63,569 bases of DNA, filler included, from Folioceros fuciformis (GCA_049999805.1; 10 parts of 10 records of this genome joined end to end with filler, not necessarily neighbours in it), one strand, 5' to 3'; counted from the first letter of the whole stretch, positions 6,181-60,512 are shown. Made by a program: numbers and translations. The notes: generated by a model not told the origin, from the letters alone.

Positions 6181-6280
6181 NNNNNNNNNNNNNNNNNNNN
6201 NNNNNNNNNNNNNNNNNNNNNNNNTTAATTAATTAANNNNNNNNNNNNNNNNNNNNNNNNNNNNNNNNNNNNNNNNNNNN
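6181..6280. other. Artificial contig-joining linker N44-TTAATTAATTAA-N44 (also at 10729, 15220, 20691, 27382, 39302, 48694, 54325, 57212)
   Basis: Identical 100-nt structure nine times. TTAATTAATTAA places stops in all six frames. Confidence 0.98.
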
Positions 6281-6295
6281 TTTTGTGGAGCAACC

Positions 6296-9123
6296 ATGTT
6301 GGATCAGCTGCTCATCTTCACCCGGGGGGGCTTGGTGCTGTGGACATGCCGGGCATTCGGAAATGCTTTGAGAGGCACACCCATCGAGGCCCTCATCCGC
6401 ACCTGCTTGCTTGAGGAGCGGGCGGGTTCATCTGCGTTCCAGTATGATGCACCAGGACAGGCGGCAGCCTACACGCTGAAATGGACCTTCCACAACGAGC
6501 TTGGTCTGGTGTTTGTTGCAGTCTATCAACGATTTCTACAACTGCTCTACGTGGACGAGCTGTTGAGCAGGGTGAAGAAGGAATTCTGCGAGATCTACAA
6601 CCCCAAGCTTACCAGGTACGAGGGGTTTGATGAAACGTTCCGGCAGCTCCTCATGGAAGCGGAAGCCAGAGCGGAGGAGCTTCGGAGGCCCAAGCATATT
6701 GCAGAGGTCAAGCGGCAGGTCAATGGACCGCATGGCAAGGTTTTGAAAGGGTCGAGCAAGAAGGAAGCCGGCGGAGATGACGAGGAAGGAGATGCGGATG
6801 CCAAGGCTGCGAGCGTTACTAATACGGTGGGGAAGCCTAGTTCGCTTGTAAATGGCATGACTACTAACAAACCTGCCAGCAATGGCAATGTAACATCGAA
6901 TGGGAGTGGGAAAGCCCTTGGAAGAAGCGGCGGTAGCGATGAGGAAGTAGAGAAGCCGGCCACCGAGGTGGCCTTTAATGTAAACAAATTACAGAAACTG
7001 AGAGCCGCCGGGAAGGGGGGCAAGAAGGGCAGTGCAAATGCAACCAAGGCTGCGAAGGAGGAGCAGGGTAAAAAGATCAAGCAAAATAGGGTTTGGAACA
7101 ATGCGTCTGCTCCATCCAAGCTGGATTTCACGGACCAGTCCGGGGACCCGGAGGGATATGAGAAGATTGTTCCGCTGACTGATCAAGGTGCGAGTTTGAT
7201 GGACAAGGATGACTATGTGGCTGAGTCCGATGATGACAAAGAGAATGAGGGAGAGGACTCTGGTGCTAAAGGTGGCCCAGCAAAGAAGGGATGGTTTTCT
7301 TCCATTGTTCAGAGGTATGGGTTCTGCGTTACGGGGCAACTTATGTGCCAGTGGCTTAGATTGGTTCCGTCCTGGACCTTATAAGAATTAGCTTGGGCAC
7401 ATCGACGACAAGCTATCTATTGTCTGGGTGTCGTCAGGAGATCTGACGATGATTCATGGGAAAATGTTTGGGTTTGCAGTGTTGCCGGGAAGCCGTGCTT
7501 GGAATTGGCGGNNNNNNNNNNNNNNNNNNNNNNNNNNNNNNNNNNNNNNNNNNNNNNNNNNNNNNNNNNNNNNNNNNNNNNNNNNNNNNNNNNNNNNNNN
7601 NNNNNNNNNNNGGTGATGTTTGGCCCCCTCTTTCAATTTCTCTCTTTTGATCTAGCATAACGAATCTTCAGGCAGAGGAAATAGCTGAGAAGCTATGTGA
7701 TTCCGTGGCCGCTAGCCTCGTTGGGAAGAAGCTTGGAACCTTCTCTCGTGTGTCATCAACAGTCCAGGTTGGTTGTGTCTCCAGTATGTGAAGATTCATG
7801 GACCCCTTTCTGCCATTCTTAAAGGTATTAATATGTCTGGTGGATGCAGGCTGCGATGGAAGAGGCTTTGCTCCGCATTCTCACACCTAAGAGATCGGTG
7901 GACATACTTCGAAGTGTCCATGCTGCTAAAGACGAAGGACGGCCATATGTCATTGTTTTTGTTGGGGTCAACGGCGTTGGCAAGTCGACAAATCTCGCCA
8001 AGGTTTGAGGCATACGTGGTTCAGACTCAGGTTACACTTGGCAACGTAGGTTTGATGCTTGCTAAACTGGTAATGACGTGCCACGATGTTACTGCAGGTT
8101 GCTTACTGGCTTCTACAGCATGATGTGAGTGTGATGCTGGCAGCATGTGACACCTTCAGGTCAGGAGCTGTTGAGCAACTGCGAACACATGCCCGTCGCC
8201 TGCAGGTTAGTTACCTTATACTGGAGCGAAGGAAGACGTCCTTTTAGACTTGAATCGAAGAAAAATGGGCAAAGTTTCCTGCCTATGTTGTTTCGAGTTT
8301 CGGAGCGCCTCCCTAAAGCAGTTGATGTTCTGTGCTCTTTCAGATACCAATTTTCGAGAAAGGTTATGAGAAGGATCCAGCCGCCGTTGCAAAAGAAGCT
8401 ATCCATGAAGCCGTGCGGACAAAACAAAACGTTGTTCTTGTGGATACTGCGGGTCGCATGCAGGTAGAAAGTTGTATCTTAAGGTACTTGTGCTCACATG
8501 GAACACGACGTTTTCTAGCATGATATGAGTGTGTAACGGTCTTGCATTCTGACGCAGGATAATGAACCATTGATGCGGGCTTTGTCTAAACTCATCAATC
8601 TCAATGAACCAGACCTGGTTCTGTTTGTCGGGGAGGCACTGGTTGGAAATGATGCAGTGGATCAGCTCACTAAATTCAATCAGGTCAGGTGGCAGTTAGT
8701 GGTGACTTTAGTGAGACGCACTTGCGTTGTTGACGCCGTCTAACAGATTATATATGTGCAGAAACTGGCTGATCTGGCTACTAAGGCAAATCCTCGTTTG
8801 ATTGATGGTATACTGCTTACCAAATTCGACACTATAGACGACAAGGTTTGCACTTGACGGCTTTCACAGTGACCCTTGTTCTTGTCCCGCATATAGTTTA
8901 TTTGTAGATATGGGAGTGAGGTTCGGACGCCAGTTCTGCCCGTTGATGACAGTGTGTGGTTGTCTGTCTATTCGCCGGCTGACTTCCTTTTATTCAGGTG
9001 GGAGCAGCGTTGTCTATGGTGTATATCTCTGGAGCGCCGGTGATGTTTGTCGGATGCGGGCAGACTTACACGGATTTGAAGAAGCTGAATGCGAAGTCGA
9101 TCATCAAATCTTTGATTACGTAG
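6296..9123 (+). CDS. SRPRA: Signal recognition particle receptor alpha subunit (SRX domain + NG GTPase)
   Basis: Exons 6296-7314, 7480-(gap), 7672-7767, 7850-8002, 8098-8205, 8344-8463, 8558-8683, 8762-8845, 8998-9123, with GT-AG introns. N-terminus [16 protein letters not shown]; GTPase motifs [25 protein letters not shown] and GCGQ. Confidence 0.97.
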
Positions 9124-9601: not shown

Positions 9602-10642
9602 TCAGGCTTTCCCGTTGCCCCATATAGGTTGGATATCCTCCTTAACCTTGATCAAAGGATCAACCTCCTCACTGTCCACAAGAGGGACATCCTTGGTCGA
9701 CAGCGGAAGTGGGACAGAAGACTCCACCAATTTCTGTTGGCTCTCTCGAACGTTAACATACGAGTAAATTCCCATGCCCAGCACAGCAACAACGATGCCG
9801 AAGATATTCCTCCAACTGAAAGGATTACTCAGCAGTATGTAACCAAATGCCAAGACCAAGCACGTCTTGAGGTGACCGAGCACCTGGTACGTTACCGGAG
9901 ATGTCTTGCCAATAACAAGAAAGGTGCTGAAGTTGACAGAAACTGAAATGAGGCATGAGAGCAAGATGACGAAGACAACCAGAGGGCTATAGTGAAAGGC
10001 AAACACGTTCTTCGATGTCAGCGCAGCATCCAGAAACGGGCCGGTCAAGAACAGAGTGGTGGTTTGATAAGGACAAGACTGGTACAGCAGTTGAGTAGAC
10101 GACACCTTGAATCTCTTCTGGATGGTATTGGTCATGATCTGTGCCACACAGGTGGTGAGGATGGCCAACACAGAAAGGATTAGCCCTAACAAGTTGAGCT
10201 GCAAGTCCGTGACGGTCGCAATGCCGACTCCCAGTAAGAGGACGAAGAGTGCCAGCTGCACATTTCGGCTAAAGCGCTTGTCGAGGAAAACAGTTTCCAG
10301 CAATACTGTGCAGGGAATGATGGCCAGCTTCGTCATCTGGTAAAATCCTACAGAGTTGAACCCCAAGCTGAGGTTGAGCAAGCCAATTGAGATGCCGTTG
10401 AGAATGCCGAACCCCATGACAGTCCGTGCGTCAAACGGCTTATGCTCAAATAACTTCACCGATCTGGCAATATGCAGGCCGCAGAAGGTGACCAACAAAT
10501 GCCAGCTCGTCAGCGTGGTGGCGAACTGAAAGTAGAGGCCACTGATCAAATACTTGTTGCAGATCACAATAGCCACCGACGATATGACGGACAAGGCGAG
10601 TGCGCCCGTCGTCCCGAGCTGTATCCCTGCAGTCTCCGTCAT
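9602..10642 (-). CDS. UXT: Golgi nucleotide-sugar transporter, UDP-xylose transporter (UXT)-like; single coding exon
   Basis: Uninterrupted multi-TM ORF from MTETAGIQLGTTGALALS. Contains VICNKYL, FATTLTSWHL, NSVGFYQMTKLAIIP and KTSPVTYQVLGHLKT, typical of the UXT clade of the NST/TPT family. Confidence 0.92.
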   Translation of the reverse strand: MTETAGIQLGTTGALALSVISSVAIVICNKYLISGLYFQFATTLTSWHLLVTFCGLHIARSVKLFEHKPFDARTVMGFGILNGISIGLLNLSLGFNSVGFYQMTKLAIIPCTVLLETVFLDKRFSRNVQLALFVLLLGVGIATVTDLQLNLLGLILSVLAILTTCVAQIMTNTIQKRFKVSSTQLLYQSCPYQTTTLFLTGPFLDAALTSKNVFAFHYSPLVVFVILLSCLISVSVNFSTFLVIGKTSPVTYQVLGHLKTCLVLAFGYILLSNPFSWRNIFGIVVAVLGMGIYSYVNVRESQQKLVESSVPLPLSTKDVPLVDSEEVDPLIKVKEDIQPIWGNGKA

Positions 10643-11140
10643 CCTGGCCGCGCGTGGCTGCACCAGCCACGCGAGCGGGAGGGTGATGGAAGCCGCAAGT
10701 ACTCCACAACACCACCGGCCGGCCGAAGNNNNNNNNNNNNNNNNNNNNNNNNNNNNNNNNNNNNNNNNNNNNTTAATTAATTAANNNNNNNNNNNNNNNN
10801 NNNNNNNNNNNNNNNNNNNNNNNNNNNNTGCTAGATGTAGCCCATTCATCATACAACAGATACTCTCTCTTTTCCAAAATGAAATCAATGACCACAACAT
10901 CTTTTCCTCAATTCATCACTGAACCTGTTGGCGCTGTTCTGGAGTCCGGCACTGTGGACTATCACATCTGCTGAACCTTGAGTCACAAGCCGGGATTTCC
11001 AAATGGGCAAGGAGCAAATATGAGGCTGGAGCAAATGTTCAAGTTCAAGTTGGTGGTAAACATAAGCATCTTCAATGTGACTTACAGACCTCTCGGATGA
11101 ATTGCAACTGTGGTCCATATTTTAAAATTAAAAGCAACAT

Positions 11141-11385
11141 CACGAAATAAATTCAGTCGCAGCACGAAATAAATTCAGTCGCAGCAGAAAGAGATTAATA
11201 AGAGATACATTCAGTCGTAGCAGAAAGAGATTAATAAGAGATACATTCAGTCGCAGCAGAAAGAGNNNNNNNNNNAGAGATACATTCAGTCGCAGCAGAA
11301 AGAGATTAATAAGAGATACATTTAGTCGCAGCAGAAAGAGATTAATAAGAGATAAACTCAGTCGGAGCAGAAAGAGATTAATAAC
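11141..11385. repeat. 36-bp tandem repeat (~6 copies) directly upstream of the LINE ORF1-like frame
   Basis: Unit TTCAGTCGCAGCAGAAAGAGATTAATAAGAGATACA at 11174, 11210, 11246 and onward. Contains a 10-N gap. Confidence 0.93.
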
Positions 11386-13096
11386 TTGAGGCAAGTGCAG
11401 ACAGTGGAATTCCCAATAATACAGGGTGATATCACGCAACATAGGTGCCAGATTAAGTCTATCCAGAAGCAGTTGCCAACATTTGTTCTCAAGCTTCATC
11501 TCCCTCAACTTCACTTGAATCTACAGAAACATCACCAAGAACAAATGGATTGCCTTCAAAACGACTTGTCCACAACTTATATGCCCAAGACGGACATCCC
11601 AAAATTGTGGGAGGGCATTATGCACTCTGTGAAGAAGGAGTTGTTGGCTGAGTGTATGCTCAACAAGGATGTCCTCATGTTACGGGATGATACCATGCAA
11701 AGAGCCTCCACCTCTGTGGATGCCAAATGTGCAACTTTGAAGCAATTTGTGTGCGAAGAACTCAAGACAATGACTAGCAAATTGGCGGTCTTAGAGCTTC
11801 AAGTTGCAGATCACATCTCCACGACAAAAGTGATTATGCAACAGGAGGTCAGCAAGTTCATTAAGGAACAAGTCCAGCCCTCAACTCCGCCTAACATATC
11901 TAATTCTCAAGAATTGCTTGCCTCGCCTTCTGATACAGTTAATGCAACTGTCATGGAATCCCAAAAGCGATTGAGGTGCTCACTTAACCTTCGAATAATA
12001 GGCTTGCAAGGTTCAGGAACTCCACGACTGGTTGTATCTGACTTCCTTGCCACAAAGCTTCATCTCCCTGGGGTTCCTTTTCAGAATGCTTGGTTAGTTG
12101 GAAGGATCCAGATCGCCTCTTGGTTTTTCTAATTCATTTCCACTCTGTTCAAGATAGGCTCCATGTGTTAAAGGCTTGTTACAAGCCTTTAACACATGGA
12201 GCCTATCTTGAACAGAGTTACCGAGCATGGGTTAGACACCTTCCCACTTTTCCCAATTTTCTTTCTACTTCTTTATTTAGGGAATATGTTTCACCAAACA
12301 TGCCTAAAACTGCATGTGGTGTGGCTTGTTTCTTTCGGTCCTCTCTCTCAAATTTTGTAACTGTGGCAAAGAAAGACCCCTTTGCGAGAGTTTTGTGGAT
12401 CAAGGTTTCTGCATCGATTCTTCCTTCTAACCGTCATCTATTCATTGCTTGCTGTTATTTTCCACCTCAAGGTTCTCTTTATGCTAGAGGCCAGCCTCTT
12501 CTGACATTTCAAGACCTCTCTGATGACTTGATGCATTTCATGCCTTTGGGTGATATCCTTTTGGTTGGAGATTCCAATGCGTGGACTTCATCCGCGCAGT
12601 CCCCTGTTTATGCACTAGATGATCAACAATAAATATTCCCGCTTGATCTAGTTGATCTTGCCTTCCAGAGAAGGACAGAGGATCCACACCAAGTCAATAT
12701 CTTTGGCAAGGCGCTTCTCAACCTTGTGGAGTCACATGGCCTACTCATCTACAATGGCCTTCCTCAATGGCACGGGAGTGAGAGAATTACGCATTGTGCA
12801 CCTTCAGGTCAACTTTCTGCTATCCTTGACTATGTCATTGGGCAACCCTCCTTTGTTTCTTCTATTCGTCAATTTTCTGTTTTTGACGTCAAGCCTTTTG
12901 AGTCTTACCATGCCTTCCTTTCTTGGCATATCCTTTTTGATAGACTTGACCCCATGCTTCAGTCCTATAAGTCTTCTAGAATTTGCTTTTCCCTTCACCA
13001 TGGCCTAGCTCCCCAATACTCCTCCTTTTTGAAAAAGTCAATTGTCGCCATCCCTCCTAACCTTCCGTTTCCCCAACAGGCCAAGGCTTTCACTTC
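11386..13096 (+). mobile_element. Decayed LINE: ORF1-like coiled coil/RRM region plus APE-type endonuclease fragments
   Basis: NLRIIGL...DFLATKLHL (ORF1 RRM-like), then VLWIKV, FIACCYFPP, ILLVGDSNA, LLIYNG, ILDYVI and SYH (endonuclease motifs) across frameshifts. Cut off at the Copia LTR. Confidence 0.8.
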
Positions 13097-15219: not shown

Positions 15220-15319
15220 NNNNNNNNNNNNNNNNNNNNNNNNNNNNNNNNNNNNNNNNNNNNTTAATTAATTAANNNNNNNNNNNNNNNNNNNNNNNNN
15301 NNNNNNNNNNNNNNNNNNN

Positions 15320-18300
15320 TATTCTAGCTAATAAGATTAGAATTAGTAAATTAGATATAATAGCTCTATATTATCTTATAGTAAGTAAGCTCTAAGAGAA
15401 GAGAATTAGAATAAGAGAACTAGTTTTCTTTTTTTAAACTTTCTCTCTCTATCTCTTTTAATATCTATTTTAGCTATAAACTATACTAACTCTATATTAT
15501 AGGTAATTAATAAATATAAGTAAGAGCTTTAGTAACTCTATAATAAAGGTAATATTAAAGTATTTAAAGTATATTCTCTACTAAAGCTACTTTTTATTAA
15601 TATATAGCTTTACCTTATATACTAGTTTACTTATATATTTATTAAGTTCTCTAGTATATTTAATATATTTATCTATAGCTCGAGTATAAAAAGTAACTCT
15701 TTAGATATTAGCTATATTACTAAGTTACTTACTTATAATTACCTTCTCTTTAATTATACTAATAAACTAAACTATTAGGCTATTATTATTAAATTCTATT
15801 AGGTAATAGTAACTTAATATAGACTTAACTAGACTAAGAATTTCTAGTATAATATATATAATATACTATATAATAAAGTATATAATAATTAGTTTAAAGC
15901 TATTTAGTTTCTAAATAACTTTAAGTAGTAAGCTTTCTTTAATCTAGATAAACTTTTTAATAAAAACTATCTAGATAAAGTATAGNNNNNNNNNNNNNNN
16001 NNNNNNNNNNNNNNNNNNNNNNNNNNNNNNNNNNNNNNNNNNNNNNNNNNNNNNNNNNNNNNNNNNNNNNNNNNNNNNNNNNNNNCTCTAAAGATATATT
16101 TTATTACTAGAGAAAGACTTTAAATTTAGAGAAGAAGAGAAAACTTTTAAATAAAAAGAACTATTTCTATATTCTAACTTTCTTTTCTTTCTTTCTACCT
16201 TTATTACTACTTATATCTTTTAGATATTATCTAGTTTTTATTTTCTAATCTCTTCTCTTCTTCTCTTCTCTAATATATATTATTACTATTAGCTATATTT
16301 TCTAACTAATTTATCTAGGTATTAACTTATACTTATTCTATACTATTTATTAGTTTAATTATAAATAGATAATTATTATTATAGCTACGCCTATACTATA
16401 CTTATTCTATAACTTTACTAGTATTCTCTTCTTTATCTACTTACTATTTAATAATAACGTTACTTAGTCTTATATTAAGTAATAATATAGTAATTTACTT
16501 AAAAACTAGAAAAGCTATAATTTTCTACTTAATCTATATAAGCTAGATTATAATAGAAATCTAGTATAATCTAAGAAAGAATAATTTATATATACTATAA
16601 GTACTTTTAAATACTATAGATACTTATCTATAATAAATATAGACTAATATAGTCTAATTCTTACTTACTTTTAAATAAAGTTTATAATTTAACGTAACTA
16701 TAATTCTAACTATATTATTAGTTCTATTAGTAAATTCTATACTATTAGGTCTTCTATATTAAAGGTTTATAAGGTAAATATTATAATAGAGAATAATTAT
16801 AGCTAGTAGAATATCTATAATAATATAGTTACTAAGTATACTTTAAAGAACTCTATTATAAATAGTACTAGTAATACTAGGTTTTTAAATAGTTATAGCT
16901 TCTATATCTTAAATCTTAGAGCTATTAGTCCTATACTCTACTTTACTAGAGATATCTATACTACTAAGGTTAATATTCTTCTAAATACTATATAGTATTT
17001 ATATAATAGTCTTTATTATAGTTCTAGATATAGCTTAGCTAATAAAGAGTCTAGCTTAGCTAGTAGTATAGACTTAAATAATAAAGAAGATAACTATACT
17101 ACTAAAGAAGAATAGAAGTATTAGAAAAAGAAGTTACTTAAGTTACTTCTATACTATACTTATTTTAGAAAATAAGAATATAAGAAATAGCTATATAAGC
17201 TAATAGAAAATATCTAAAAAAACTTCTCTCTTATTTACTTAGCTACTTATAAGAAGATTTTCTAGAATAAGATAGTTTTTAATCTTAGTACTATTAAGCT
17301 AGTCTATATATTTATCTTATTCTCTAAGCGGATTTAAGCTATATTCGCTTTAATTACTAATTAAGTAGATAGCTATAATAAAAAGATATTAGTATTTATA
17401 TAGAATCTATAGAAATAGTAGCTTTATATTATTCTTCTTTACCTATTAAACTATAATACTAATACTATATTAGCTACTATAAAATTAATAGAGAAAGATA
17501 AGGCTATTACTAAGTTTTAGAAGCTTCTAAAGTACTAAATTTAACTTAGATATTATAACTAGTTAAAGATAAATTTAGAGATATTAGTTTTATCTTACTA
17601 TATAAACTTTAGTTTAAATCTCTATATAATATATTATAATATTTACGTACTATCTTCTCTACTATTATACTTTATCTAGGTTTAGTCTATTAGATAGATT
17701 ACCTAGTTTAGATAGGCCTTTAACTATCTAGTAATTATATATATTATTAAGCGAATATTTAATATAGTATAATATAGCTTTCTAGCTAGTAATATATTAT
17801 TTATAATTATAGTACTAACTTATAATATTAAGATACTAGACCTAAATACTATAGATATAGTAGATTTACTATTTATCTTATTTATAGAGCTTACTTATTT
17901 CTATAGCTATAAAAATACTTTTATTAATAACTATAGCCTAAGCTACTTTAAGATAGATATAGTAGAGCTTATTATCTATAATCTCTTTATTAATAATAAG
18001 TTTATTTTTATTCTTAATATTATTCTTAGTTTATTTAAGTTTATTACTAAGAAAACTATAAGTATAAATTTCTACTAAGTTTTAAAAGTATAGCTATTAT
18101 AGACTAGATTTAAAGTAGTAGTTATTTTACTTAGTATACTTAAGAAAAGTAGTATAAGTAAGATAGACTCTAGTATATTAATATCTAGCTTATATATAAT
18201 ACTATTAGGTTATTAGAGAAAGAAACCTATATTATAGAATACTACTTTAGATAGTAGTTTACTAGCTAGCTTATTCTTATTTATAAGTTCTATAGTTTCT

Positions 18301-20690
18301 AATATTAGTAATAATTTTATTAAGAAGTATAAGTTAAAAGCTTTAGATAAAGTAGATAATAATATTAAGAGTAAAGATAATAATAGTAGTAAGAAGAAGA
18401 AAAAATAGAAGTAGAACTAGAAAATAAGTAGAGAATATTAGTAGAAGAATCTTTCTAGAGAACGTAAGTCTAGCTATATTAAATAGTAAGAGAAGAAAAA
18501 AAATATAGATATATCTAAAGCTATAGATAATAAGAGAGCTTAATTTCTAGATATATCTTTAGAAACTTATATAAGTATATAGAATAGAAAAGTAGTTAAA
18601 TAAAAAGAATCTATTTCTATTTATTAAAGCCTTCTCTTTTTTCTCTATTATACTATATAAGTTAGAATTAAAGTAGACTAGAGAATAAAATAGATTATAG
18701 CTATAGCTATATAGCTTAGGATATAAAATTATATTATAAGTATATTATAAAACTATTCTTATTTCTTCTATATTATATATAACTTAATATAAATATTTTA
18801 TATCTTAAGTTTTATTTATATAGATATATATACTTTATATATTACTAGTTTAGTATTTATACTCTACTTTTATAATTATAGTTTATAGTCTTAGAAGATA
18901 AATATTTTCTAAAACTTCTAAATTTAAAGTAGAGTAAATTATAGTATAAAGTATAAGAATATACTTTATAACTATTAATTAGATTATAGTATTTTAATAT
19001 ACTTTTATTTTATATAGTCTAAAAGATATATATTATTACTATTTAATATATATTAAAATTATAATATTATTAAAGTTTTACTATAAGTAGAGTAATATTT
19101 CTTTAAGACCTAAAAGTTACTAATATATTAAAATATTATATTCTCTTCTATTAAAAATTACCTAGTATATTAAGTAAATAAGAAAGAGAAAAGAAGTTTT
19201 AAGATAAGAAAACTATTACTATATCTAAACTTCTCTTTTTCTTTTTCTAGTCTTTTCTTTTCTTCTAATAGTTTATAAAAGAGTAGCTATATTATTAATA
19301 AATAAAGTTTATATTATAAGTAAAAGTAGCTACTTTTTATAGTAGTAAATAAGTAATAAACTATAGTAGTACTTCTTTACTTTACTTTCTAATTATAGAG
19401 AAGACCTATATAGATAACTATATTCTTCTCTACTAAGTTAACTAGAATATCTTATAATAACTAATATAGAGACTTTTAATTTTTATCTTATAGCTATTTT
19501 ATAAGCTAATATATAAACTATAGATACTATATTTAATATTAAAATTAAAGAGTATTTATCTTTATACTATATACTTTTACTTCTATATTATTAAGAATAT
19601 AAAAGTATAATATAATAAGAGCTAGCTTATTAAGAGTATTAGTATACTTTTATTACTATCTAGTACTAGTCTAACTTAGTAGATAGACTTTAAGATAGAT
19701 ATTAGAGTATTTCTTCTTATATATTTCTTTCTAAGAAAGGTAAGATTTACTAATAAATATATAATTAATATATTTAGATATTATATTTAAAAATTATATA
19801 GTTACTTTCTAAGTTATAAGTATATATCTTTATAGATATCTATTCTAACTAGCTATTATTCTATATTAATATAGTAGTATAGAAGTAGAATATATATTTT
19901 ATTTTTAAGTTCTTTATACTAGATAATAAGTTATACTTAAATAGAGAGTAGATAGTAGTAGAGTATCTACTAAAAATTATAGAGTAGTCTTACTATAAAG
20001 AATAAGACCTAAAGTATATATAGCTAAATATATATTATATAATAGGTCTAGATATATACTAGGTATTTATATCTATATAGTACTATATTACTAAGTTTAT
20101 ATTATATCTTAATCTAGAGAATATAACTAACTTATTATTTCTAGATAAAGATTATTAAAGTATATTAAATAAGATAAAAAGTCTATAAAAAGTAGTATAA
20201 TATATAATATTTATCTATAAGTAAGAGTAACTATATTATATACTATTTTTAATATAGGTATTTAGAAGCGTAGTTAGAACTATATAGGTAGAGTTATTCT
20301 AGTAGTTAAGAGAAGTTATAGAGCTAGTATAGCTATACTAGGTTAGATTAATATTAACTATCTTCGTATATAATATACTATAGAAGTTAAGTAGAAAGTA
20401 TATTCTAGTACCTAAAGAGCTAAAGAAGAGTATTACTAAAGTACTATAATTAGAGTAGTATACTAACTATAGAGATACGTAGATAAAGTATATATAGCTC
20501 TAGATAGAATATATATCGTAGTATAATATATCGTTTAATATTAACTAAGACCTTAAGACTATATAGTAAGAGATTATTATAGATAAGGTAGTAGTAATAA
20601 TAGATTACTTATAGAGTAGATTCTTATATAAATTTACAATAAATAAAAGTCCTATTCTTTACTATAGCTAGTAAAATAGTAGTATATATA
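15320..20690. other. RIP-mutated AT-rich contig, probably of ascomycete fungal origin
   Basis: By eye, no TG and only one CA (20637) in ~5.2 kb. CG and CC are rare, C survives mainly as CpT (G as ApG), TA is everywhere, and the ORF track is empty here. Confidence 0.9.
15321..17790 (+). pseudogene. RIP-inactivated SNF2-family (SF2) helicase/ATPase gene with introns
   Basis: Reversing transitions gives ordered motifs: ILADExGIGK (att cta gct aat aag att aga att agt aaa, 15321-15350), LDEAQ (cta gat aaa gta tag, 15971-15985), TATP (ata gct acg cct, 16381-16392), KILVF (17383-17397), GLNL (agt tta aat ctc, 17611-17622), QSIGRITRFGQ (17683-17715). The 3' end is approximate. Confidence 0.8.
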
Positions 20691-21344
20691 NNNNNNNNNN
20701 NNNNNNNNNNNNNNNNNNNNNNNNNNNNNNNNNNTTAATTAATTAANNNNNNNNNNNNNNNNNNNNNNNNNNNNNNNNNNNNNNNNNNNNGGGGGTCCCG
20801 TCCCCGCACTTCCACGGCCGATAGCCGGGAACCGGTAACGAAGCGCTTGGGGCCCGATTCGGCTGCGTTTTCTCGTATCTCGCATCATCGACTCCAGCAA
20901 GACGTCCATTTGATTCCCGTTTCAGGAAACGGGTACCCGGAAATAAAGGCAGCTTTCTCCCGCCAGACGCGAGATGAGATGCTCACACCATGCTCAGTCT
21001 CCGGAGTCACCCCAAAGGTGTTGCTCCGTCGATTCAATGTACCGGAGACCTTTCAAGGCCAGGCTATGGCATGCCAAAGCGGACGCATCCTACGACCCAT
21101 TCAAGCTAACAGTATTACAAACCATCACAAAAGTGTTAGAATTTTTACACAAGAGCGCTCACATTGAAGCTTACTCTTCAAGATTCCTAGTAACGGACGG
21201 AGTCGGCAACGGGAATTCGTAAGATGGAGGGACTGAGGGCGCCGGGCAGGGGCTAGCTCGGTGGCTCGATGGAGGCGATGAGCTTCCCATGGGGACTCAA
21301 CAGTTTGCACATGGGCGGCAGTGGTCGGTTTGTGTGCTAATAAA

Positions 21345-28611: not shown

Positions 28612-31600
28612 ATGGCGGACAAGGACAAGGACAAGAAGAAGCTGAAGCTCATTCTGAAGCTCCCGCGTTCCGCCTCCTCTTCCTCCTCTCCCGCCGCCGC
28701 GGCGGCAGCGGCAGCGGCGGCTCCACCCGCCCCCGCTTCGCGGCAGGCGCCCGCCGCATCCTCCAGGCCGGTGCCATCCACTCCCGGCGCCGGGGCCAGG
28801 GCTGGGGCTGGGGCCTTGCATTCGGGCAGGCGGGACGGCGGGCCCCTGGCCGCGCCTGCGCCCGCGCCTGCCCCGACCCCGGCCCTATCCGGCAGGCTGA
28901 CCAGGGGTTACGGGTCTCCGCCGCCGCAGCAGCAGCAACACCAGCCGCAGCCACCGCCACAGCCACCACAGCAGCATGGTGGGTTGGGATGGCAGAGGAC
29001 GGGATCCGGGCTGAGGACGGACCCGGGGGCTGCGGCAGCGGGGCTGCGGTTTGCCCCGGGCTCGGAGAATGAACATGCGGATGAGGACGGCGACGTGGAC
29101 GGGGACGGGTTGCCCACGCCGCCCAAGAAGCGCAAGTTCAAGACGGTGGCGGAGAGCAGCGCCAGATCGGGACCCGCGAGCTCCCCAGGCTCGCCGGATG
29201 AGTGGGCCAAGCCGCTGGGGCTGCCGCCTACGGCCGGATCCTCTCTGCCTCCTCTTGCCAAGAAGCCGGCGCTGCTGACTAGAGTGAGTGAGTTGGACGC
29301 TTCCGAGTGTGATCTGCAGCTGCCGCGGCCAAGGCCAGTCCCAGAATGTCCTTAGCATGCTTTGAAGCCATGTGGGTCGTTCGGGCTGGGTGTGTGGAGG
29401 TCGTGGGTTGGTTTCTTGACCTGGCTCACGATGGTTTCTGTCTCGGCTTGGTTTGCTGCAGAAGGGCGACAAGCCGGCTGAAGGGTCGGAGACGGAATCG
29501 CTACCTGCTTCCAGTACGTTGCCGAATTTGCTGCCTTCATCGTCGTCGCATGTGTCTGTTCTCCGAGTTCGAGGGAAAGTGTTCCCAATAGGGTTGTCTG
29601 GCTGATCTCGCTGACGACTTTCACCTCGCGTCTGCAGGCGGGCACGCATTTGATCCCCTGCCTGTCAAGGCTGTTTTGGAGGGTCTCCTCGACAAGTTGC
29701 AGAAGTCCGTCCCTCCTCTTGTCTTCTCTTTTCTTATCCTTTCTCTCCACCATCTGGCTTGTGGGCATGCTCCACTGGCTGGCATTTCTTTGTGTGGCTT
29801 GGCTTCTGTGCCGATCTGTTACCTGTCTCTCATCTCAATATGCGTGGCTTATCAGGAAGGATACGTATGGAGTGTTTGCCGAGCCCGTGGATCCCAGGAT
29901 GGTATGACAGCAGCATCCATCTAGTTCACGTTTGATTAGCCAGCGTCTGCGCGATTTGGAGGTGGCATGCCGTCCTTGAGTATTCAAGTACCACGTCGCT
30001 CACGTTTACTGCTTTCGTCAGGTACCAGACTATTATGACGTCATTAAGAAACCGATGGACTTCGGGACCATTCGAAAGAAAGTATCCAAGGGAACCTACT
30101 CAGCCCTCGAGCAGTTTGAGGTGGGTGACTGGATATTCTCATGGCGCTGGTTGGTGAAAGTGCTTCACGTTTGGACGGCAATTACTTAAGGAGGCCGTCT
30201 TGTTGCAGGCGGACATTTTGTTGATCTGCAATAACGCGATGCGGTATAATGCACCCAATACGGTCTACTACAAGCAGGTTAGGTGTCTCCTCTGTCCCTA
30301 CTCGTATGCGTTGGTTTTAAATCATCGTCGCTGTTAGCCATTTGTGAATAATTTGTGCCTGGATTTGCGTAACACTCGTCCGTTGGTCTGATCAGAACCG
30401 TCATTGTTGTTAGCCGTTTGTGAACAACCTGTGCCTCAATATGCGTGCTTGACACTTCTGCATTGTTAATTCCTCAGGCAAGGGCGATCCAGGACATGGC
30501 GCGCAAGTCGATTCCTGCGTTAAGGCTACCTGGGAGTGATGGTGAGCGGAAGGTGCTAGCCAAGTCAAAGTCCAGCTCTGCAGCGAAGAAGTCTGGGAAA
30601 AAAGCTCCTATTGGGAAATCTCGTTTCGACCCTGCTGGATCTGATTACACCTCTGGGGCCACCTTAGCGTCTGATGGAGATGCCAGAGTGGCCTCTGAAC
30701 GCTCTGGCAGTGCTGGTGGGGAAGATTCAGAAGCTCAAGTCGGAGCATGGGGAGGTGTGTCTCAGGGTGGAACTTTGGATACTGGAGGCACTTGGACACA
30801 AGAAGAGCTAGCAGGTATTCTGTCAGACCATCAAGCTTGGCTTATCGTATGCCTGGACGGAATAACGCAGGACTTGTCAGTTCATGTTTTTCCCGTCAGT
30901 TTCCGCCACGGACCAAGCCCGTACTGTTGCCAGCAGCTGTTCGTGAATTTATAGGAAGATTGGTTTGCAGGAACAGCTCTTAGGCCAATGTCCATGAAAG
31001 ATGGGAGGCGTCCCTTGTCCACTGAGGAGTATCATCGGAGCTCCTACAAGTCCCGAAAGCTTCCGGCTCATGGGCAGGGTCCAGTGCTAGCTGCAGTTGG
31101 TGGGGAACTTCAGCAGCTTATATCTGTAAGTTGTGGGGACAATCATTCAAAGACTTCAGCACAAATCAGTGAACCTGTGCAGTGTTTAACTGGGGTCATC
31201 TGGCATACAGGTTGGACCTCAACAAGAGCACGCTTATGCTCGGAGTATTGCTTCCTTTAGTGCTGATTTGGGTCCTGGTGCTTGGAAGTTTGTTGCAAGG
31301 AAGATGCAAAAGGTTTTGGCACCACAGATCTCATTCGGACCGGGATGGGTAGAGCAACCAAATGGGTTCCATCGCCCTTCTTCAGTGTCTACTGGGTATG
31401 GTCAAGGTGCATTGTTGGCAAAGACGGTGGTCGCAGAACAGCATAAGCCTCCTGTTCAGTCAGCCCCAACAACAAGGTTGTCTCATATTGCACCCGTAGG
31501 ACCTTCTGGTCAAGGTCTACCTGCTTTGAGTGTACCACCGCCTGCTGTGAGTGGTCCGTCTCCATCCGGTCCTGTCCCATCCAGTGCTGTCCCATTTGAT

Positions 31601-33307
31601 CATCTTAAAGCTGTTGTTCCACTAAAGCCGGCGGAACCTTCGGTAAGGTCGGGCACTACTTCAGTTTCAGGGAATTATGGCTCTGCGAAGCCTCAAGCGG
31701 ACCCATCCTTGAGACCAAGGGATGGGAAGGTTTTCATTCCACCCCAGGGTTTCGGCACGTTCCCGATGGCCGCCCCGACAGCCATGTCGGAGAAGAATGC
31801 AGTGGTGCCTCAAGTTATGAGTAAACAGCTACCTAGCTCTGTGGGTGCAGATATGCATCGGCCAACTTTTTCTGGTGACAGTGGAGCTGAGGAATCCAAA
31901 AGTGTGTCTGGTGGGTTTGGTCATTTCGATCTTAGTCTAGATGCTGCAGCTGTCCCGTTGAAGGGTTTAACCACTGTGTTTTCCAAGGATGGACTTATTG
32001 CTGCCCCTAGCTCTACGGGCAAGTCTTCTGATGACAAAAACAGCAAGGGAGGGAGTAGATCCTCCACCCAATCAAGATCCAGCAGCAGTTTAGATGGCCA
32101 GGCTGGCCCATCTGGTATGGATGGAGTGATATCTGGCCCAGATGTATCAGTTATGCAGGCAGGTGTAGACAAGGGGTGCAAAGAGGACAGTCAGCCTAAA
32201 CCCAAAATGCAAATCTCTGCGAAGCAGAGTTTGAGCCAGACTTCAGATGAACCAGGTGGTACCGCAGTTGGCGTTGGGCCCCTCCAACCTGAGGATAAGC
32301 TTATTGCTGGAAGCAGGGGCGCTGGTTCTTGGGTGAAACTACAACCTGGTCCCTCCATGCAAGACCAGGTCACTTCCAGGGATCGAGCTACTGCTGTGCT
32401 TGCAACAGGAACACCAGGTGTTGAAAATGGTTTCACCGGGGCACACGTCGTTCCTCTATCTCTGTTGCCAACCATCATGGGTGTTCCCAATGGTGCTGCT
32501 CCGGGTGTGGATGAGTATGCCCTCAAGGCTTGGGCCCAAGCGCAAGCTCAAGTTCATGCAATGAATCTACTGCAGCAAGCAGACCCAAAGACGCGAGCTG
32601 CCATTCAGGCACAATTGGCAGCTGGATGGCAACCGCTGCCTGTGAATTTACAGTCTCATTATGTTCAACAACAATTGAATGGTGCACCCTCATTTGCGCA
32701 ACCTCCTCAACCTAACCGGACATACCCACTTCCAGCTCCTAACGTGGGGCCGTCTCAGTTAGGACATACAGTTGGGCCTGTCCCTCAGTCTTCAGATTCA
32801 AGAGAGCTCCCTGTCGGAAGCGGTCGGCAGGGGAATGCGTCTCAATTAGGTTACACTGGGAATGGCAGATCTAATGTTTCCATGATGGTCCTTAGCAATG
32901 TTCCCCAGCAGACAGGACAGTTAGTCACCGGCAGACCATCTGATTTGCCTCGAAACCCTGATATTAACACCCCTTTCCTAGGAACGAGGTCTGTGACATC
33001 GCAGTCCTTGCCTCACATGCAGGTTTCTAACCCCTACTCCTCTAGTCCACATCCATCAGGCAGAAATCTTATGCCTCTCCAACAACAGCCTCCAGTACAG
33101 AATTCAGGTAACACGAACGCCACCCCATCTCAACGTTATGCTCCAACTCACAGTTCAAGTAGCAACTCGGGTACCTCCTCTCGGCCTATGCCGCCTGACT
33201 TGAATATTTGCTTTCAGCCTCCTCAATCTCCAACAACTCCCAAGACATCTCCAGGTCCAAGGATGCTGGTTGATTCCCAACAGCCAGACTTAGCTCTGCA
33301 GTTGTAA
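28612..33307 (+). CDS. Plant bromodomain protein, BRD1/BRD2/BRD13-type (BRD7/9-like SWI/SNF subunit)
   Basis: Spliced bromodomain LLDKLQK-KDTYGVFAEPVD-PDYYDVIKKPMDFGTIRKK-ICNNAMRYNAPNTVYYKQARAIQ (exons between ~29640 and 30500). N-terminal KKLKLILKLP, GPGAWKF...FGPGWV and C-terminal QQPDLALQL are family hallmarks. Confidence 0.93.
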
Positions 33308-58934: not shown

Positions 58935-60512
58935 TTAGCTGCACTGTCACACTCCTGCCAGTGCCCAGCTTGGGGTCATAAAAACTATGCCTCACCTTGG
59001 ACCACCTGCGTCCGACTCCTTACAGGACCGCAGCTTCCACTACCAAGGCACCAAGACAAAAACCCTAGACACAGCCAGAACCCACAAACTATACACACTT
59101 AACGCCCGAAGAAGACGAAACAAAATCCTCAAGGCACAAGCAGACTAGCAGACATTCAGACACCAAGCAAACTACCGATTGAAGCAAGGAAAAGCCCACC
59201 GTCGCACCATCGCTCAACTAGGAGCTTGCATGGCGGGCTGTCATCATAGTGCTGCGTGACACCATCCCTCTGCCACCAGCCTGGTCGGCATCCAGCACGC
59301 ATAACAAGAACGTATCGAACGCACGACCCAGCAGCGGCAAGGACAACCTCCTTCTCCTCCAGTCGGAATAAACCGAGGAAGAAAAGCAGGCGAGAGATGG
59401 AAACAGCACTCCGATAAGATCAAGTAGTGTGACCTAAATCAGTCTACCGTCCGTTTATATGCAGACCCACACAAGACTTTAGGGCCAGGTGAACTGAGAG
59501 ACGGTGTCGAATCTTTGCCGTCGTTCATCCAACATTCATGGCAGGCGGNNNNNNNNNNNNNNNNNNNNNNNNNNNNNNNNNNNNNNNNNNNNNNNNNNNN
59601 NNNNNNNNNNNNNNNNNNNNNNNNNNNNNNNNNNNNNNNNNNNNNNNNAAGTAATACTTATCACACATTTTTTAGCTAAACATAAAAGTAAACTTAAATA
59701 AAGCTTAGAATGAATATATAGAATTAAATTTAAGTCATTAAATTAATACAAGTAACGGAAAAGCCTCGGTTTTCTGTGGCACTGCAAAACAACACGTGCG
59801 ATGTGTGGGTTCAAGCTGGTTTGCATTACGACCAAAAAATAAAAAAATTGCGGTGCCCGAGATCAAGCTGGTTTGCACTACTACAAGGAGTCCATTTACT
59901 TGAATGGAATCTGCCATTTATCCACAATAAGCGGTAGCTGAACCGGGCTTGTAAAAAATGGTTACAGATTTCCCGGTCTCGTAAGAGAGGACAGTGATAT
60001 CACGTGCCCGAGGTCAGGCGGGGAGTCGAAACCGACTGCGTTCGAGCGAGCGCAAGTGGTGGCCATGGAAAGTGCAATTGATGTGCCGACCGTTTGTCAC
60101 CATGTTCGAGGCCGTGCAATGCCCTAGATCTCGGGGCTACCTCTGATGCTGGAAGCGAGGTGTTCATCTGCGGAGCCATGGTCTGCATAGTCGCAAGCAG
60201 GGGCTGCGGATGAGCTTTTTCCGGGGCGTGGAAATGATCTGCTCCGGGAGTACCTAATCGAGCTGGAGGCGAGCAGGAAGTGCGTAGACTGGTGAAGGTG
60301 CGTAGTTTTGTTGGTGGAGAAGGCTTGTGTGGTTTGGTTTGGGGGAGCTGGGGACCGGGACGAAGAATATACGGGTTGGGGTTGTGGTTGTGTTTGAGAT
60401 GTTGGATGCTTGGCCTAGCTCTGTGGATGTGGTGTGCATGCTGTGCGGGTGGCTGCGGAGCTCGCTGACAGTCTGGTAGCGGCTGCAGAACGGTGAGAGG
60501 GAGGTGAGGGGA

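What the first reader, a model, noticed from the sequence alone, without database searches (positions are those of the whole stretch)
15320..20690. Extreme RIP signature inside a plant assembly
Seen: ~5.2 kb with no TG and one CA by eye, few CG/CC, and C retained almost only before T, on both strands. Established: RIP in filamentous ascomycetes converts CpA to TpA (and in some lineages CpG) in duplicated DNA, and plants are not known to do this. The plant Copia, LINE and hAT relics in this window keep normal CA/TG. The contig is linker-bounded on both sides. Most likely source is a co-sequenced fungal endophyte or contaminant. The exciting alternatives are fungal DNA integrated in the plant genome or a RIP-like process in this plant.
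Basis: partly seen in the sequence, partly recalled or inferred. Interest (0 to 1): 0.8.

Follow-up and report, generated by a model that had tools for sequence, protein, structure and literature searches.

The report
RIP-destroyed fungal helicase gene relic
This 5.4 kb unplaced scaffold in a green-plant assembly is the wreck of a fungal helicase-like gene, mutated as far as the fungal genome defence RIP can take it, and it most likely comes from a fungus sequenced along with the plant.

Summary
Scaffold 15320-20690 has 0 TG, 1 CA, 14 CG, 19 CC, GC 19.2%, TpA/ApT 1.60 and (CpA+TpG)/(ApC+GpT) 0.002. The other nine scaffolds score 1.22-1.40 on that last index.

Transitions leave the purine/pyrimidine pattern intact. 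That pattern keeps strong codon periodicity in one + frame from 16086 to about 18500. A translation of that frame with X at stops finds real homologues, best E 2.5e-47. All four named ones are Pleosporales fungi.

At 67 conserved family columns, 66 codons derive from the conserved residue by C-to-T or G-to-A changes alone. Permutation gives a mean of 13 and a maximum of 25.

The composition matches the end point of a mutator that hits C before A, G or C and spares C before T.

Neighbouring scaffolds carry green-plant genes and un-RIPed transposon relics.

Verdict: a saturated RIP relic of a fungal SNF2-like gene, almost certainly from a co-sequenced ascomycete. Integration into the plant genome is untested, because the scaffold ends in linkers. 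This is an ordinary phenomenon and a clean example of it.

The parts
15220..15319 (.). Left assembly linker (N44, 12-base six-frame stop spacer, N44). It separates this scaffold from an unrelated Copia-bearing scaffold.
   Evidence: linker table; sequence read.
15320..20690 (.). Whole RIP-saturated scaffold. It consists of two contigs joined by an N100 gap at 15986-16085. GC is 19.2%, with no TG and one CA.
   Evidence: There is no ORF of 110 aa or more. Pfam gave no match in six frames at E up to 1. No Rfam match is better than E 0.45.
15500..15982 (+). Relic of the upstream coding part (SNF2-like N-terminal lobe) of the ancestral helicase-like gene, in the frame that starts at 15323.
   Evidence: The RIP-aware profile alignment scores 169 against L001 ORF1 residues 193-349 (shuffles 28-33), 138 against L002 ORF residues 4-162 (shuffles 38-41), and 109 against P0067 residues 1-120. 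L001 ORF1 has a sub-threshold SNF2-rel_dom match of 17 bits against a cut-off of 24.9.
15983..16311 (+). Unaligned interval between the two coding relics, containing the N100 gap. It is probably an intron or insertion. L001 has an interruption at the same place, whereas the L002 ORF is continuous there.
   Evidence: L002 residue 162 maps to 15982 and residue 165 to 16312. L001 ORF1 ends at 1111 and ORF2 starts at 1301. This part is an inference.
16312..18657 (+). Main relic of the ancestral helicase-like ORF, in the frame that starts at 16087. It covers the helicase C-terminal lobe and a lysine/serine-rich tail. About 8.5% of codons are now TAA or TAG, and alignment needs no frameshift.
   Evidence: R/Y period-3 power is 9-18 in this stretch. 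Phase is constant and this frame has the fewest stops. phmmer gave E 2.5e-47, 1.6e-38 and 1.4e-30. RIP-aware alignment scores are 281-830 against shuffles of 64 or less for 15 of 15 family proteins. 66 of 67 conserved columns are transition-compatible.
18658..20690 (.). RIP-saturated DNA downstream of the relic, with no surviving codon periodicity and no similarity to the helicase family. Its ancestry is unknown (non-coding or too degraded).
   Evidence: Period-3 power is 0-1.7. Stops are evenly spread over all six frames. Profile alignments are at the shuffle level.
20637..20638 (+). The only CA dinucleotide of the scaffold. It lies in the right-end zone where unconverted sites are slightly denser.
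20691..20790 (.). Right assembly linker.

Best explanation
The scaffold is a piece of the nuclear genome of a RIP-competent filamentous ascomycete. The relatives of the destroyed gene point to Pleosporales or at least Dothideomycetes.

It once carried a gene of roughly 3 kb or more for a divergent SNF2-like (superfamily 2) helicase-like protein, followed by about 2 kb of other DNA. Repeat-induced point mutation is the premeiotic fungal defence that deaminates cytosines in duplicated DNA and its surroundings. It converted essentially every C followed by A, G or C to T, and on the other strand every G preceded by T, C or G to A. C before T was left untouched.

This drove the DNA to the end point of that rule. 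GC fell to 19% and CA and TG disappeared. Glutamine, tryptophan and some arginine codons became TAA or TAG.

The relic codes for nothing now. In its home genome it would be part of an AT-rich heterochromatic block. It sits in this record because unplaced scaffolds were strung together with linkers, and one of them came from a fungus living in or on the sequenced plant material.

- Shown: the composition, the ancestral frame, the homology, the pure transition spectrum, and the plant nature of the neighbouring scaffolds.
- Inferred: that the target was duplicated or lay beside repeats, the fungal order, and contamination rather than integration.
For: **Signature**
- Product index 1.60, substrate index 0.002, composite index 1.60, over 5.27 kb.
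- This passes the published thresholds (product above 1.15, substrate at most 0.75, composite above 0, at least 4 kb). I read these as passages of PMC7882544.

**End point of the mutation rule**
- I saturated the window's own plant DNA in silico under the rule 'C to T unless followed by T'.
- Per 5270 bases this gives GC 0.180, CT 473, AG 473, TA 1223 and AT 830. Observed values are 0.192, 453, 488, 1265 and 789.
- A CpA-only rule gives GC 0.341. CpA plus CpG gives 0.264. CpA plus CpT gives 0.105 with no CT left.

**Ancestral ORF**
- Purine/pyrimidine period-3 power is 9-18 across 16086 to about 18500. Real ORFs of the window give 8-15, 141 host windows of 900 bases have a median of 1.2, and the 95th percentile of shuffles is 3.6.
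- The purine-rich phase is constant, and the same + frame has the fewest stops.

**Homology found without any RIP assumption**
- phmmer of the X-at-stop translation against 1.84 billion representative proteins gave 16 hits at E up to 0.001. The best are 2.5e-47, 1.6e-38 and 1.4e-30.

**Taxonomy**
- The named members are from Coniothyrium glycines, Dendryphion nanum, Kalmusia sp. and Epicoccum nigrum. All are Pleosporales.

**Mutation spectrum**
- At 67 invariant or at least 90% conserved family columns, 33 codons still encode the conserved residue.
- 33 of the remaining 34 derive from it by C-to-T or G-to-A alone, 66 of 67 in all.
- 2000 permutations give a mean of 13.2 and a maximum of 25. 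A T/A transversion control gives 33.

**Host context**
- Neighbouring scaffolds carry SRP-alpha_N, TPT and HPAT genes plus Copia, RVT_1 and hAT relics, all with normal indices.
- The named SRP-alpha relatives are all green plants or green algae.

**Literature, read as passages only**
- Fungal AT-rich components range from 12.3% to 48% GC (PMC4943192).
- Large RIP-affected regions average 14.9-33% GC (PMC7882544).
Against: - No junction, read depth or whole assembly could be examined, so contamination versus integration rests on parsimony.
- Only one sample of one study holds the sequence. It may be the source of the assembly, so it is not independent support.
- No duplicate of the scaffold was seen. 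There are no long internal repeats, even in the transition-collapsed alphabet. The source genome is not available, so the defining requirement of RIP, a repeated target, is not shown.
- The Pleosporales attribution rests on 4 named proteins. At least 12 further relatives from metagenomes and unnamed assemblies have no taxon.
- My rough estimate of ancestral identity to the best named protein is only about 40%. That is no closer than family members are to each other, at 25-50%.
- Published large RIP-affected regions or AT-blocks of two Pleosporales (Leptosphaeria maculans 32-33.9% GC, Pyrenophora teres 33%) are much less AT-rich than this scaffold.
- The RIP-aware alignment used itself assumes transitions, which favours compatibility. 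The permutation control and the independent phmmer result limit this bias but do not remove it.
Confidence: 0.85

Rival explanations
1. Already RIP-mutated fungal DNA is physically integrated in the plant nuclear genome (fungus-to-plant transfer), and the scaffold is unplaced only because it is AT-rich and hard to anchor.
For: Nothing positive. The fungal origin of the DNA fits this reading as well as contamination. Two runs of one sample hold it, with shares 0.94 and 0.83.
Against: The scaffold ends in artificial linkers on both sides, so no plant junction exists in the data. There is no transition-collapsed similarity to the other 58 kb of the window. 66 of 67 conserved codons remain explicable by transitions alone, so there is little sign of later decay in a foreign genome. 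Unplaced small scaffolds are where contaminants usually collect (general knowledge).
Confidence: 0.04
2. The DNA is fungal and RIP-mutated, but the source is a filamentous ascomycete outside Pleosporales. The helicase family would then be wider than its four named members suggest.
For: Most relatives are unnamed. The scaffold's ancestor is not especially close to any named protein. GC of 19% resembles the large RIP-affected regions reported for Zymoseptoria tritici (15.2%), Fusarium (14.9-23.2%) or Trichoderma reesei (15.6%) more than those of L. maculans or P. teres (32-33%).
Against: 4 of 4 named relatives are Pleosporales, from four different families. [quoted passage not shown]
Confidence: 0.2
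3. A RIP-like cytosine-to-thymine process operates in this plant itself on its own repeated DNA.
For: Only the location of the scaffold in a plant record.
Against: The destroyed gene belongs to a family whose named members are all fungal. The plant's own repeat families in the window are untouched: a Copia with an open 560-codon frame, a second Copia RT, an RVT_1 fragment and a hAT fragment, on scaffolds with substrate indices of 1.35-1.40. The RIP-aware comparison with these elements is at the shuffle level, while its positive control works.
Confidence: 0.005
4. The signature is an artefact: chemical or enzymatic deamination (bisulfite-like), a sequencing or assembly error, or simply DNA of a naturally AT-rich organism or organelle.
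For: GC of 19% is also seen in some organelles and protists (general knowledge).
Against: Deamination artefacts do not spare C specifically before T. They also do not mix C-to-T and G-to-A within single codons of one strand, as seen for arginine codons now read as TAA or TAG. The sequence is held by two separate runs. Naturally AT-rich coding DNA needs ATG, TGG and CAN codons, whereas TG is absent and every frame is closed. The homology and the 66 of 67 result show a normal gene as the starting point.
Confidence: 0.01

Closest known systems
RIP-degenerated AT-rich blocks and large RIP-affected regions of Dothideomycetes (Leptosphaeria maculans AT-blocks; Stagonospora/Parastagonospora nodorum repeat families)
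   Same: Both consist of C:G-to-T:A transitions concentrated on CpA/TpG with TpA excess. Both are kilobase-scale, gene-dead, AT-rich DNA. [quoted passage not shown] The scaffold meets the product, substrate and composite thresholds and the 4 kb length.
   Different: This scaffold is far more complete. Its substrate index is 0.002 and its GC 19%, against 33.9% GC for L. maculans AT-blocks (PMC3105345 passage). That figure is what my CpA-only saturation predicts, 34.1%. Here CpG and CpC are also exhausted. The wrecked sequence is a helicase-like gene, not one of the LTR retrotransposons or DNA transposons that make up most L. maculans blocks.
Neurospora crassa RIP (the experimentally defined system, needing RID)
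   Same: The outcome is the same kind: transitions only, CpA preferred, and stop codons created from Gln and Trp codons.
   Different: In N. crassa Tad1 copies, RIPCAL found a major rise in CpT-to-TpT changes besides CpA (PMC2621366 passage). Here CpT is essentially untouched, with CT+AG at 941 against 946 expected with no CpT loss at all. Dependence on RID or DIM-2 cannot be tested without the source genome.
Aspergillus nidulans MATE-type RIP with dual CpG and CpA preference
   Same: CpG is removed as thoroughly as CpA (14 CG left). Dual CpG/CpA targeting is described for MATE elements (PMC2621366 passage).
   Different: CpC is also nearly exhausted here (19 CC and 23 GG). The relatives of the destroyed gene are Dothideomycetes, not Eurotiomycetes.
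Divergent SNF2-like / superfamily 2 helicase proteins of Pleosporales (such as KAL6702419.1, a hypothetical protein of Coniothyrium glycines)
   Same: The ancestral ORF aligns over nearly the full length of these 650-890 aa proteins. It shares their conserved columns once transitions are allowed for.
   Different: The scaffold copy is dead. The family itself is uncharacterised. Pfam gives only weak Helicase_C matches, 7 of 16 hits at E up to 0.01 and 2 of 16 above the curated cut-off. A profile of 12 members finds no solved structure at E up to 0.01.

Membership tests
[quoted passage not shown] | Differences from the un-mutated sequence are C:G-to-T:A transitions only | tested here: met
   66 of 67 conserved family columns are compatible by C-to-T or G-to-A alone. 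33 are unchanged and 33 are changed but compatible. Permutation gives a mean of 13.2 and a maximum of 25 in 2000. The transversion control gives 33. Alignment of 731 residue pairs needs no frameshift.
[quoted passage not shown] | Dinucleotide bias: CpA/TpG depleted and TpA raised (product above 1.15, substrate at most 0.75, composite above 0) | tested here: met
   Searches give 1.60, 0.002 and 1.60. The thresholds come from PMC7882544 passages.
[quoted passage not shown] | Extends over a gene-sized or larger tract (large RIP-affected region, at least 4 kb) | tested here: met
   5271 called bases are uniformly affected in 300-base windows. One N100 gap lies inside the tract.
[quoted passage not shown] | The target was duplicated in the genome, or adjoined a duplicated tract (leakage) | not testable with these tools
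   No source genome is held. No long internal repeat was found. One unnamed relative (P0059) has a RIP-like amino-acid make-up, which hints that the family is a recurrent target. That is an inference.
[quoted passage not shown] | The source organism is a filamentous ascomycete with RID (and DIM-2) | not testable with these tools
   Only indirect evidence: 4 of 4 named relatives of the wrecked gene are Pleosporales.
SNF2-like / superfamily 2 helicase (the ancestral gene) | Helicase C-terminal domain | tested here: inconclusive
   The scaffold's own translation has no Pfam match. Among its 16 homologues, 7 match Helicase_C at E up to 0.01 and 2 exceed the 23.5-bit cut-off.
SNF2-like / superfamily 2 helicase (the ancestral gene) | SNF2-type N-terminal ATPase lobe | tested here: inconclusive
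   ORF1 of relative L001 gives SNF2-rel_dom at 17 bits, below the 24.9 cut-off. The scaffold's left piece aligns to that ORF with a score of 169 against shuffles of 33 or less.
Plant nuclear DNA of the assembled host | Physical continuity with host sequence | not testable with these tools
   Both ends are artificial linkers. Read laying could not be done.
Plant nuclear DNA of the assembled host | Composition and gene content like the other scaffolds | tested here: not met
   GC is 0.19 against 0.43-0.52, and the substrate index is 0.002 against 1.22-1.40. The gene relic has fungal relatives. Transition-collapsed k-mer sharing with the other 58 kb is at control level.
Copia, LINE or hAT transposon relic (the usual RIP target) | Similarity of the ancestral frame to transposon proteins | tested here: not met
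   The RIP-aware profile against the window's Copia, RVT_1 and hAT proteins is at the shuffle level. The positive control, an in-silico saturated Copia against a 51%-identical Copia RT, scored 340 against shuffles of 36 or less. Gypsy elements and other DNA transposons were not tested, for want of reference proteins.

The most novel reading that the evidence does not exclude
The RIP-saturated fungal fragment is not a contaminant but is integrated in the nuclear genome of this deep-branching green plant. That would be a recent fungus-to-plant transfer of heterochromatic DNA, kept as an unplaced AT-rich scaffold.
Probability: 0.04. Interest if true: 0.7.

Novelty: new member of a known kind. Interest (0 to 1): 0.28.

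Why it matters
For the assembly, this is a hygiene flag. At least one unplaced scaffold is fungal, so the record probably holds more DNA of the same fungus, and gene or repeat censuses of the plant should screen for it.

For fungal biology, it is an unusually clean example of RIP run to completion.
- The composition sits on the calculated end point of a rule that hits C before A, G or C and fully spares C before T.
- The victim is a helicase-like gene of an uncharacterised Pleosporales family rather than a classical transposon.

Methodologically, the purine/pyrimidine channel survives RIP. It can recover the frame, the extent and even the homologues of a gene that ordinary domain searches no longer see.

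Tried and rejected
**Searches on the scaffold that found nothing**
- Pfam on all six frames with X at stops: 0 families at E up to 1.
- Rfam at E up to 1: one chance-level row, E 0.45.
- Repeats: only arms or copies of 45 nt or less at 68-85% identity, and eight small tandem rows with scores of 95 or less. It is not a satellite.
- Transition-collapsed self comparison: no long direct or inverted repeat. My reversed-sequence control was flawed, because it shares palindromic words.

**Comparisons with the rest of the window**
- Plain BLASTN among the ten scaffolds: no shared segments between scaffolds. A pairwise test of host duplicates for RIP was therefore impossible.
I replaced it with k-mer counts: k=24 gave 41 and 23 against controls of 39 and 28, k=28 gave 2 and 0 against 0 and 0, and k of 32 or more gave none.
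- RIP-aware profile against 11 window ORFs: at the shuffle level. The two highest were the SRP negative control (78 against shuffles of 37-49) and a Copia gag/SH3 ORF (61 against 40-53). I take both as lysine-rich low-complexity noise.

**Searches on the helicase family**
- PDB sequence search with the family profile: 0 hits.
- The metagenome scan gave only 2 related loci. Neither is RIP-affected (GC 0.44-0.62), and neither shares collapsed k-mers with the scaffold above control.

**Reads, runs and earlier notes**
- Public runs: one sample of one study holds the stretch. That gives no independent occurrence and no habitat inference.
- Read laying: one request failed on short pieces between Ns. 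The second was stopped by a filter and used the cap. No depth or end information was obtained.
- No whole genome is held.
- Earlier notes of this scan: nothing found by place, words or sequence.

**Other checks**
- Atlas look-up of the 705-aa ORF at 31190-33307: best score 0.87 with Streptophyta clusters. This is a lead only.
- Copia relatives include plants but also a pseudoscorpion and Microbotryum, so the Copia alone does not prove plant origin.

**Readings considered and dropped:** organelle or protist AT-rich DNA, bisulfite-like artefact, and APOBEC-type editing. The contexts and coding evidence do not fit.


Full report
**1. The observation**

The window is a chain of ten scaffolds. They are joined by nine identical 100-base linkers (N44, a 12-base spacer with stops in all frames, N44), and each scaffold also carries an inner N gap. 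The finding is one whole scaffold, 15320-20690, made of a 666-base and a 4605-base contig around an N100 gap.

Its dinucleotide counts are TG 0, CA 1 (at 20637), CG 14, CC 19, GG 23, CT 453, AG 488 and TA 1265. GC is 19.2%. CT is 453 against 487 C, and AG is 488 against 525 G. All 19 CC are CCT.

TpA/ApT is 1.60 and (CpA+TpG)/(ApC+GpT) is 0.002. The other nine scaffolds give 0.69-0.89 and 1.22-1.40, at GC 0.43-0.52. Base composition alone predicts about 200 each of CA and TG, so this is not chance. The effect is uniform along the scaffold, with slightly more unconverted sites at the right end.

**2. What the scaffold is not**

- It has no ORF of 110 codons or more. Every frame is 8.5-15% stops.
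- It has no Pfam match in six frames read with X at stops.
- It has no credible Rfam match.
- It has no tandem array or long repeat.
- It shares nothing with the other 58 kb of the window, either directly or after collapsing C with T and G with A.

**3. The surroundings are green-plant DNA**

Neighbouring scaffolds encode these proteins and relics:
- an SRP receptor alpha N-terminal domain
- a TPT-family transporter
- mitochondrial carrier exons
- a full-length hydroxyproline O-arabinosyltransferase domain
- Copia RVT_2 (two scaffolds), an RVT_1 fragment and a hAT dimerisation fragment

The 57 relatives of the SRP-alpha fragment that were scored include only green plants and green algae among the named ones. 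The best is an unnamed transcriptome protein at 69%, followed by liverworts and angiosperms at 48-49%.

Relatives of the Copia are mostly plant proteins but include a few animal and fungal ones, so the Copia is not diagnostic on its own. CpG in the nine host scaffolds stands at 202 per 5270 bases against 320-341 for CC, GG and GC. Such depletion is typical of methylated plant DNA (general knowledge).

The record is therefore a plant assembly, and this scaffold is the odd one out.

**4. The mutation rule**

I took the window's own plant DNA as a stand-in for ordinary DNA and applied C-to-T (and G-to-A on the other strand) to saturation under different context rules. All dinucleotide counts are per 5270 bases.

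| Rule | GC | CT | AG | TA | AT |
|---|---|---|---|---|---|
| CpA only | 0.341 | 469 | 467 | 1021 | 530 |
| CpA + CpG | 0.264 | 521 | 522 | 1223 | 665 |
| CpA + CpG + CpC (CpT spared) | 0.180 | 473 | 473 | 1223 | 830 |
| CpA + CpT | 0.105 | 0 | 0 | 1021 | 976 |
| Observed scaffold | 0.192 | 453 | 488 | 1265 | 789 |

The scaffold sits on the end point of 'every C except C before T'. CpT looks not merely less preferred but practically untouched.

As an aside, the CpA-only end point (34.1%) equals the 33.9% GC reported for Leptosphaeria maculans AT-blocks (PMC3105345 passage).

**5. Recovering the ancestor**

Transitions cannot change whether a base is a purine or a pyrimidine, so that channel keeps pre-mutation information.
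- Period-3 power of the purine indicator is 9-18 in 900-1500-base windows from 16086 to about 18500.
- From about 18800 to the end it is 0-1.7.
- Genuine ORFs of the window give 8-15. 141 host windows have a median of 1.2. The 95th percentile of shuffles is 3.6.
- The purine-rich position keeps one phase throughout. The + frame starting at 16087 has 9-19 stops per 200 codons, where the other + frames have 18-46.

Two independent signals thus point to one long ancestral ORF on the + strand.

**6. Homologues**

I searched the translation of 16087-18798, with X at stops, by phmmer against 1.84 billion representative proteins. It found 16 proteins at E up to 0.001. The best are 2.5e-47 (query 98-653 against residues 2-576 of a 779-aa protein), 1.6e-38 and 1.4e-30.

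Pfam sees only weak Helicase_C in them. Seven of 16 match at E up to 0.01, and two exceed the cut-off. A profile of 12 members finds no solved structure.

Named members are hypothetical proteins of Coniothyrium glycines, Dendryphion nanum, Kalmusia sp. and Epicoccum nigrum. These belong to four families of Pleosporales, Dothideomycetes. The rest are unnamed metagenome or assembly proteins. One of them (P0059) itself has a RIP-like amino-acid make-up.

I then built a RIP-aware profile, in which each T may have been C and each A may have been G, scored with BLOSUM62.
- Control: an in-silico saturated copy of the window's Copia (GC 0.427 falling to 0.185) still found a 51%-identical Copia RT at 340, against shuffles of 36 or less.
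- The same kind of profile built from the scaffold does not find the window's Copia, RVT_1 or hAT proteins.
- It aligns to 15 of 15 family proteins at 281-830, against shuffles of 64 or less. For example, residues 1-765 of the Coniothyrium protein align with 16375-18603.

The left contig continues the gene upstream.
- 15500-15982 aligns to the part of two metagenome relatives that precedes this region, with scores of 169 and 138 against shuffles of 41 or less.
- One of those relatives carries a sub-threshold SNF2-related match.
- The unaligned interval 15983-16311, which contains the gap, coincides with an interruption between two ORFs in relative L001. It is probably an intron (inference).
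- The order and orientation of the two contigs are therefore supported.

**7. The spectrum**

At the 67 columns that are invariant or at least 90% conserved in the family alignment, 33 scaffold codons still encode the conserved residue. A further 33 are reachable from a codon of that residue by C-to-T or G-to-A alone. Examples are Arg and Gln codons now reading TAA or TAG, Gly now AGA or AGT, His and Cys now TAC or TAT, and Pro now CTA. One column is incompatible.

Permuting residues among the same codons gives a mean of 13.2 and a maximum of 25 in 2000 trials. Allowing T/A transversions instead gives 33. Over all 731 aligned positions, 167 are identical and 384 are transition-compatible. From this I estimate roughly 40% ancestral identity to that protein, similar to the identity among family members.

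The gene was killed almost purely by transitions, without frameshifts and with little later decay. This is what RIP does. Slow pseudogene erosion would not produce this pattern.

**8. Mechanism and placement**

The best reading is a saturated RIP relic of a divergent SNF2-like helicase gene, plus about 2 kb of downstream DNA. It comes from a RIP-competent ascomycete, probably a Pleosporales relative, that was present in the sequenced plant material.

It passes the published criteria for a large RIP-affected region (PMC7882544 passages). Its GC lies within the ranges reported for fungal AT-rich components, 12.3-48% (PMC4943192 passage), and for large RIP-affected regions, 14.9-33%. Its depleted dinucleotides are those listed for Stagonospora nodorum repeats (PMC2621366 passage).

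Three things are not shown:
- That the target was repeated, because no source genome is available.
- That the source has RID or DIM-2.
- That the DNA is free of the plant genome. The scaffold ends in linkers. The only public sample holding it may be the assembly's own. Read laying failed.

**9. Verdict**

A plant RIP-like process is effectively excluded. Integration remains possible, at about 4%. The phenomenon is known, so this is a new and very clean instance of it, and a contamination flag for the assembly. Interest is low to moderate.

All papers were read as search listings and passages only. No supplements were opened.

Noticed in passing
window 6181-6280, 10729-10828, 15220-15319 and six more linkers: The window is not one chromosome stretch but ten independent scaffolds. 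They are strung together with identical 100-base linkers (N44, a 12-base all-frame stop spacer, N44). Adjacency of features across linkers therefore means nothing.
   Followed up: yes
window 6281-7384 (+), 9602-10726 (-), 60480-61622 (+): Three host genes are readable as long uninterrupted frames of 367-380 codons: SRP receptor alpha N-domain, a TPT transporter and a hydroxyproline O-arabinosyltransferase. The SRP fragment is only 48-49% identical to land-plant proteins and 69% to one unnamed transcriptome protein. The host therefore seems to be a green-plant lineage without close sequenced relatives.
   Followed up: partly
protein P0059 (unnamed ENA contig of 1308 bases): This relative of the helicase family has a RIP-like amino-acid make-up. 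Conserved His, Met, Gly and Pro positions read Tyr, Ile, Ser and Leu, yet the frame is still open. It matches the scaffold translation better (40%) than intact relatives do (23-26%). Other RIP-hit copies of this family therefore exist in public data.
   Followed up: partly
locus L001 1-1111 and 1301-3832; L002 126-2915: In one metagenome relative the gene is split into two ORFs with a gap of about 190 bases, at the place where the scaffold has its unaligned interval. In the other relative the ORF is continuous. This suggests an intron that is present in only some family members.
   Followed up: partly
window 12142-12218: A 77-base, 98.7% identical palindromic match lies inside the Copia-bearing scaffold (scaffold coordinates 1314-1390). 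Tandem repeats of about 100 bases at 93% identity lie near 11166-11376.
   Followed up: no
window 31190-33307 (+): This 705-codon open frame has no Pfam match. It lies on the scaffold that also carries mitochondrial-carrier exons on the other strand. The Atlas look-up gave only weak leads (0.87) to uncharacterised Streptophyta clusters.
   Followed up: partly
calculation on window scaffolds: Saturating ordinary 49% GC DNA under a CpA-only rule ends at 34.1% GC, the value published for L. maculans AT-blocks. Adding CpG gives 26%, and adding CpC gives 18%. The GC of a fully RIPed block may therefore reveal the context range of the mutator.
   Followed up: partly
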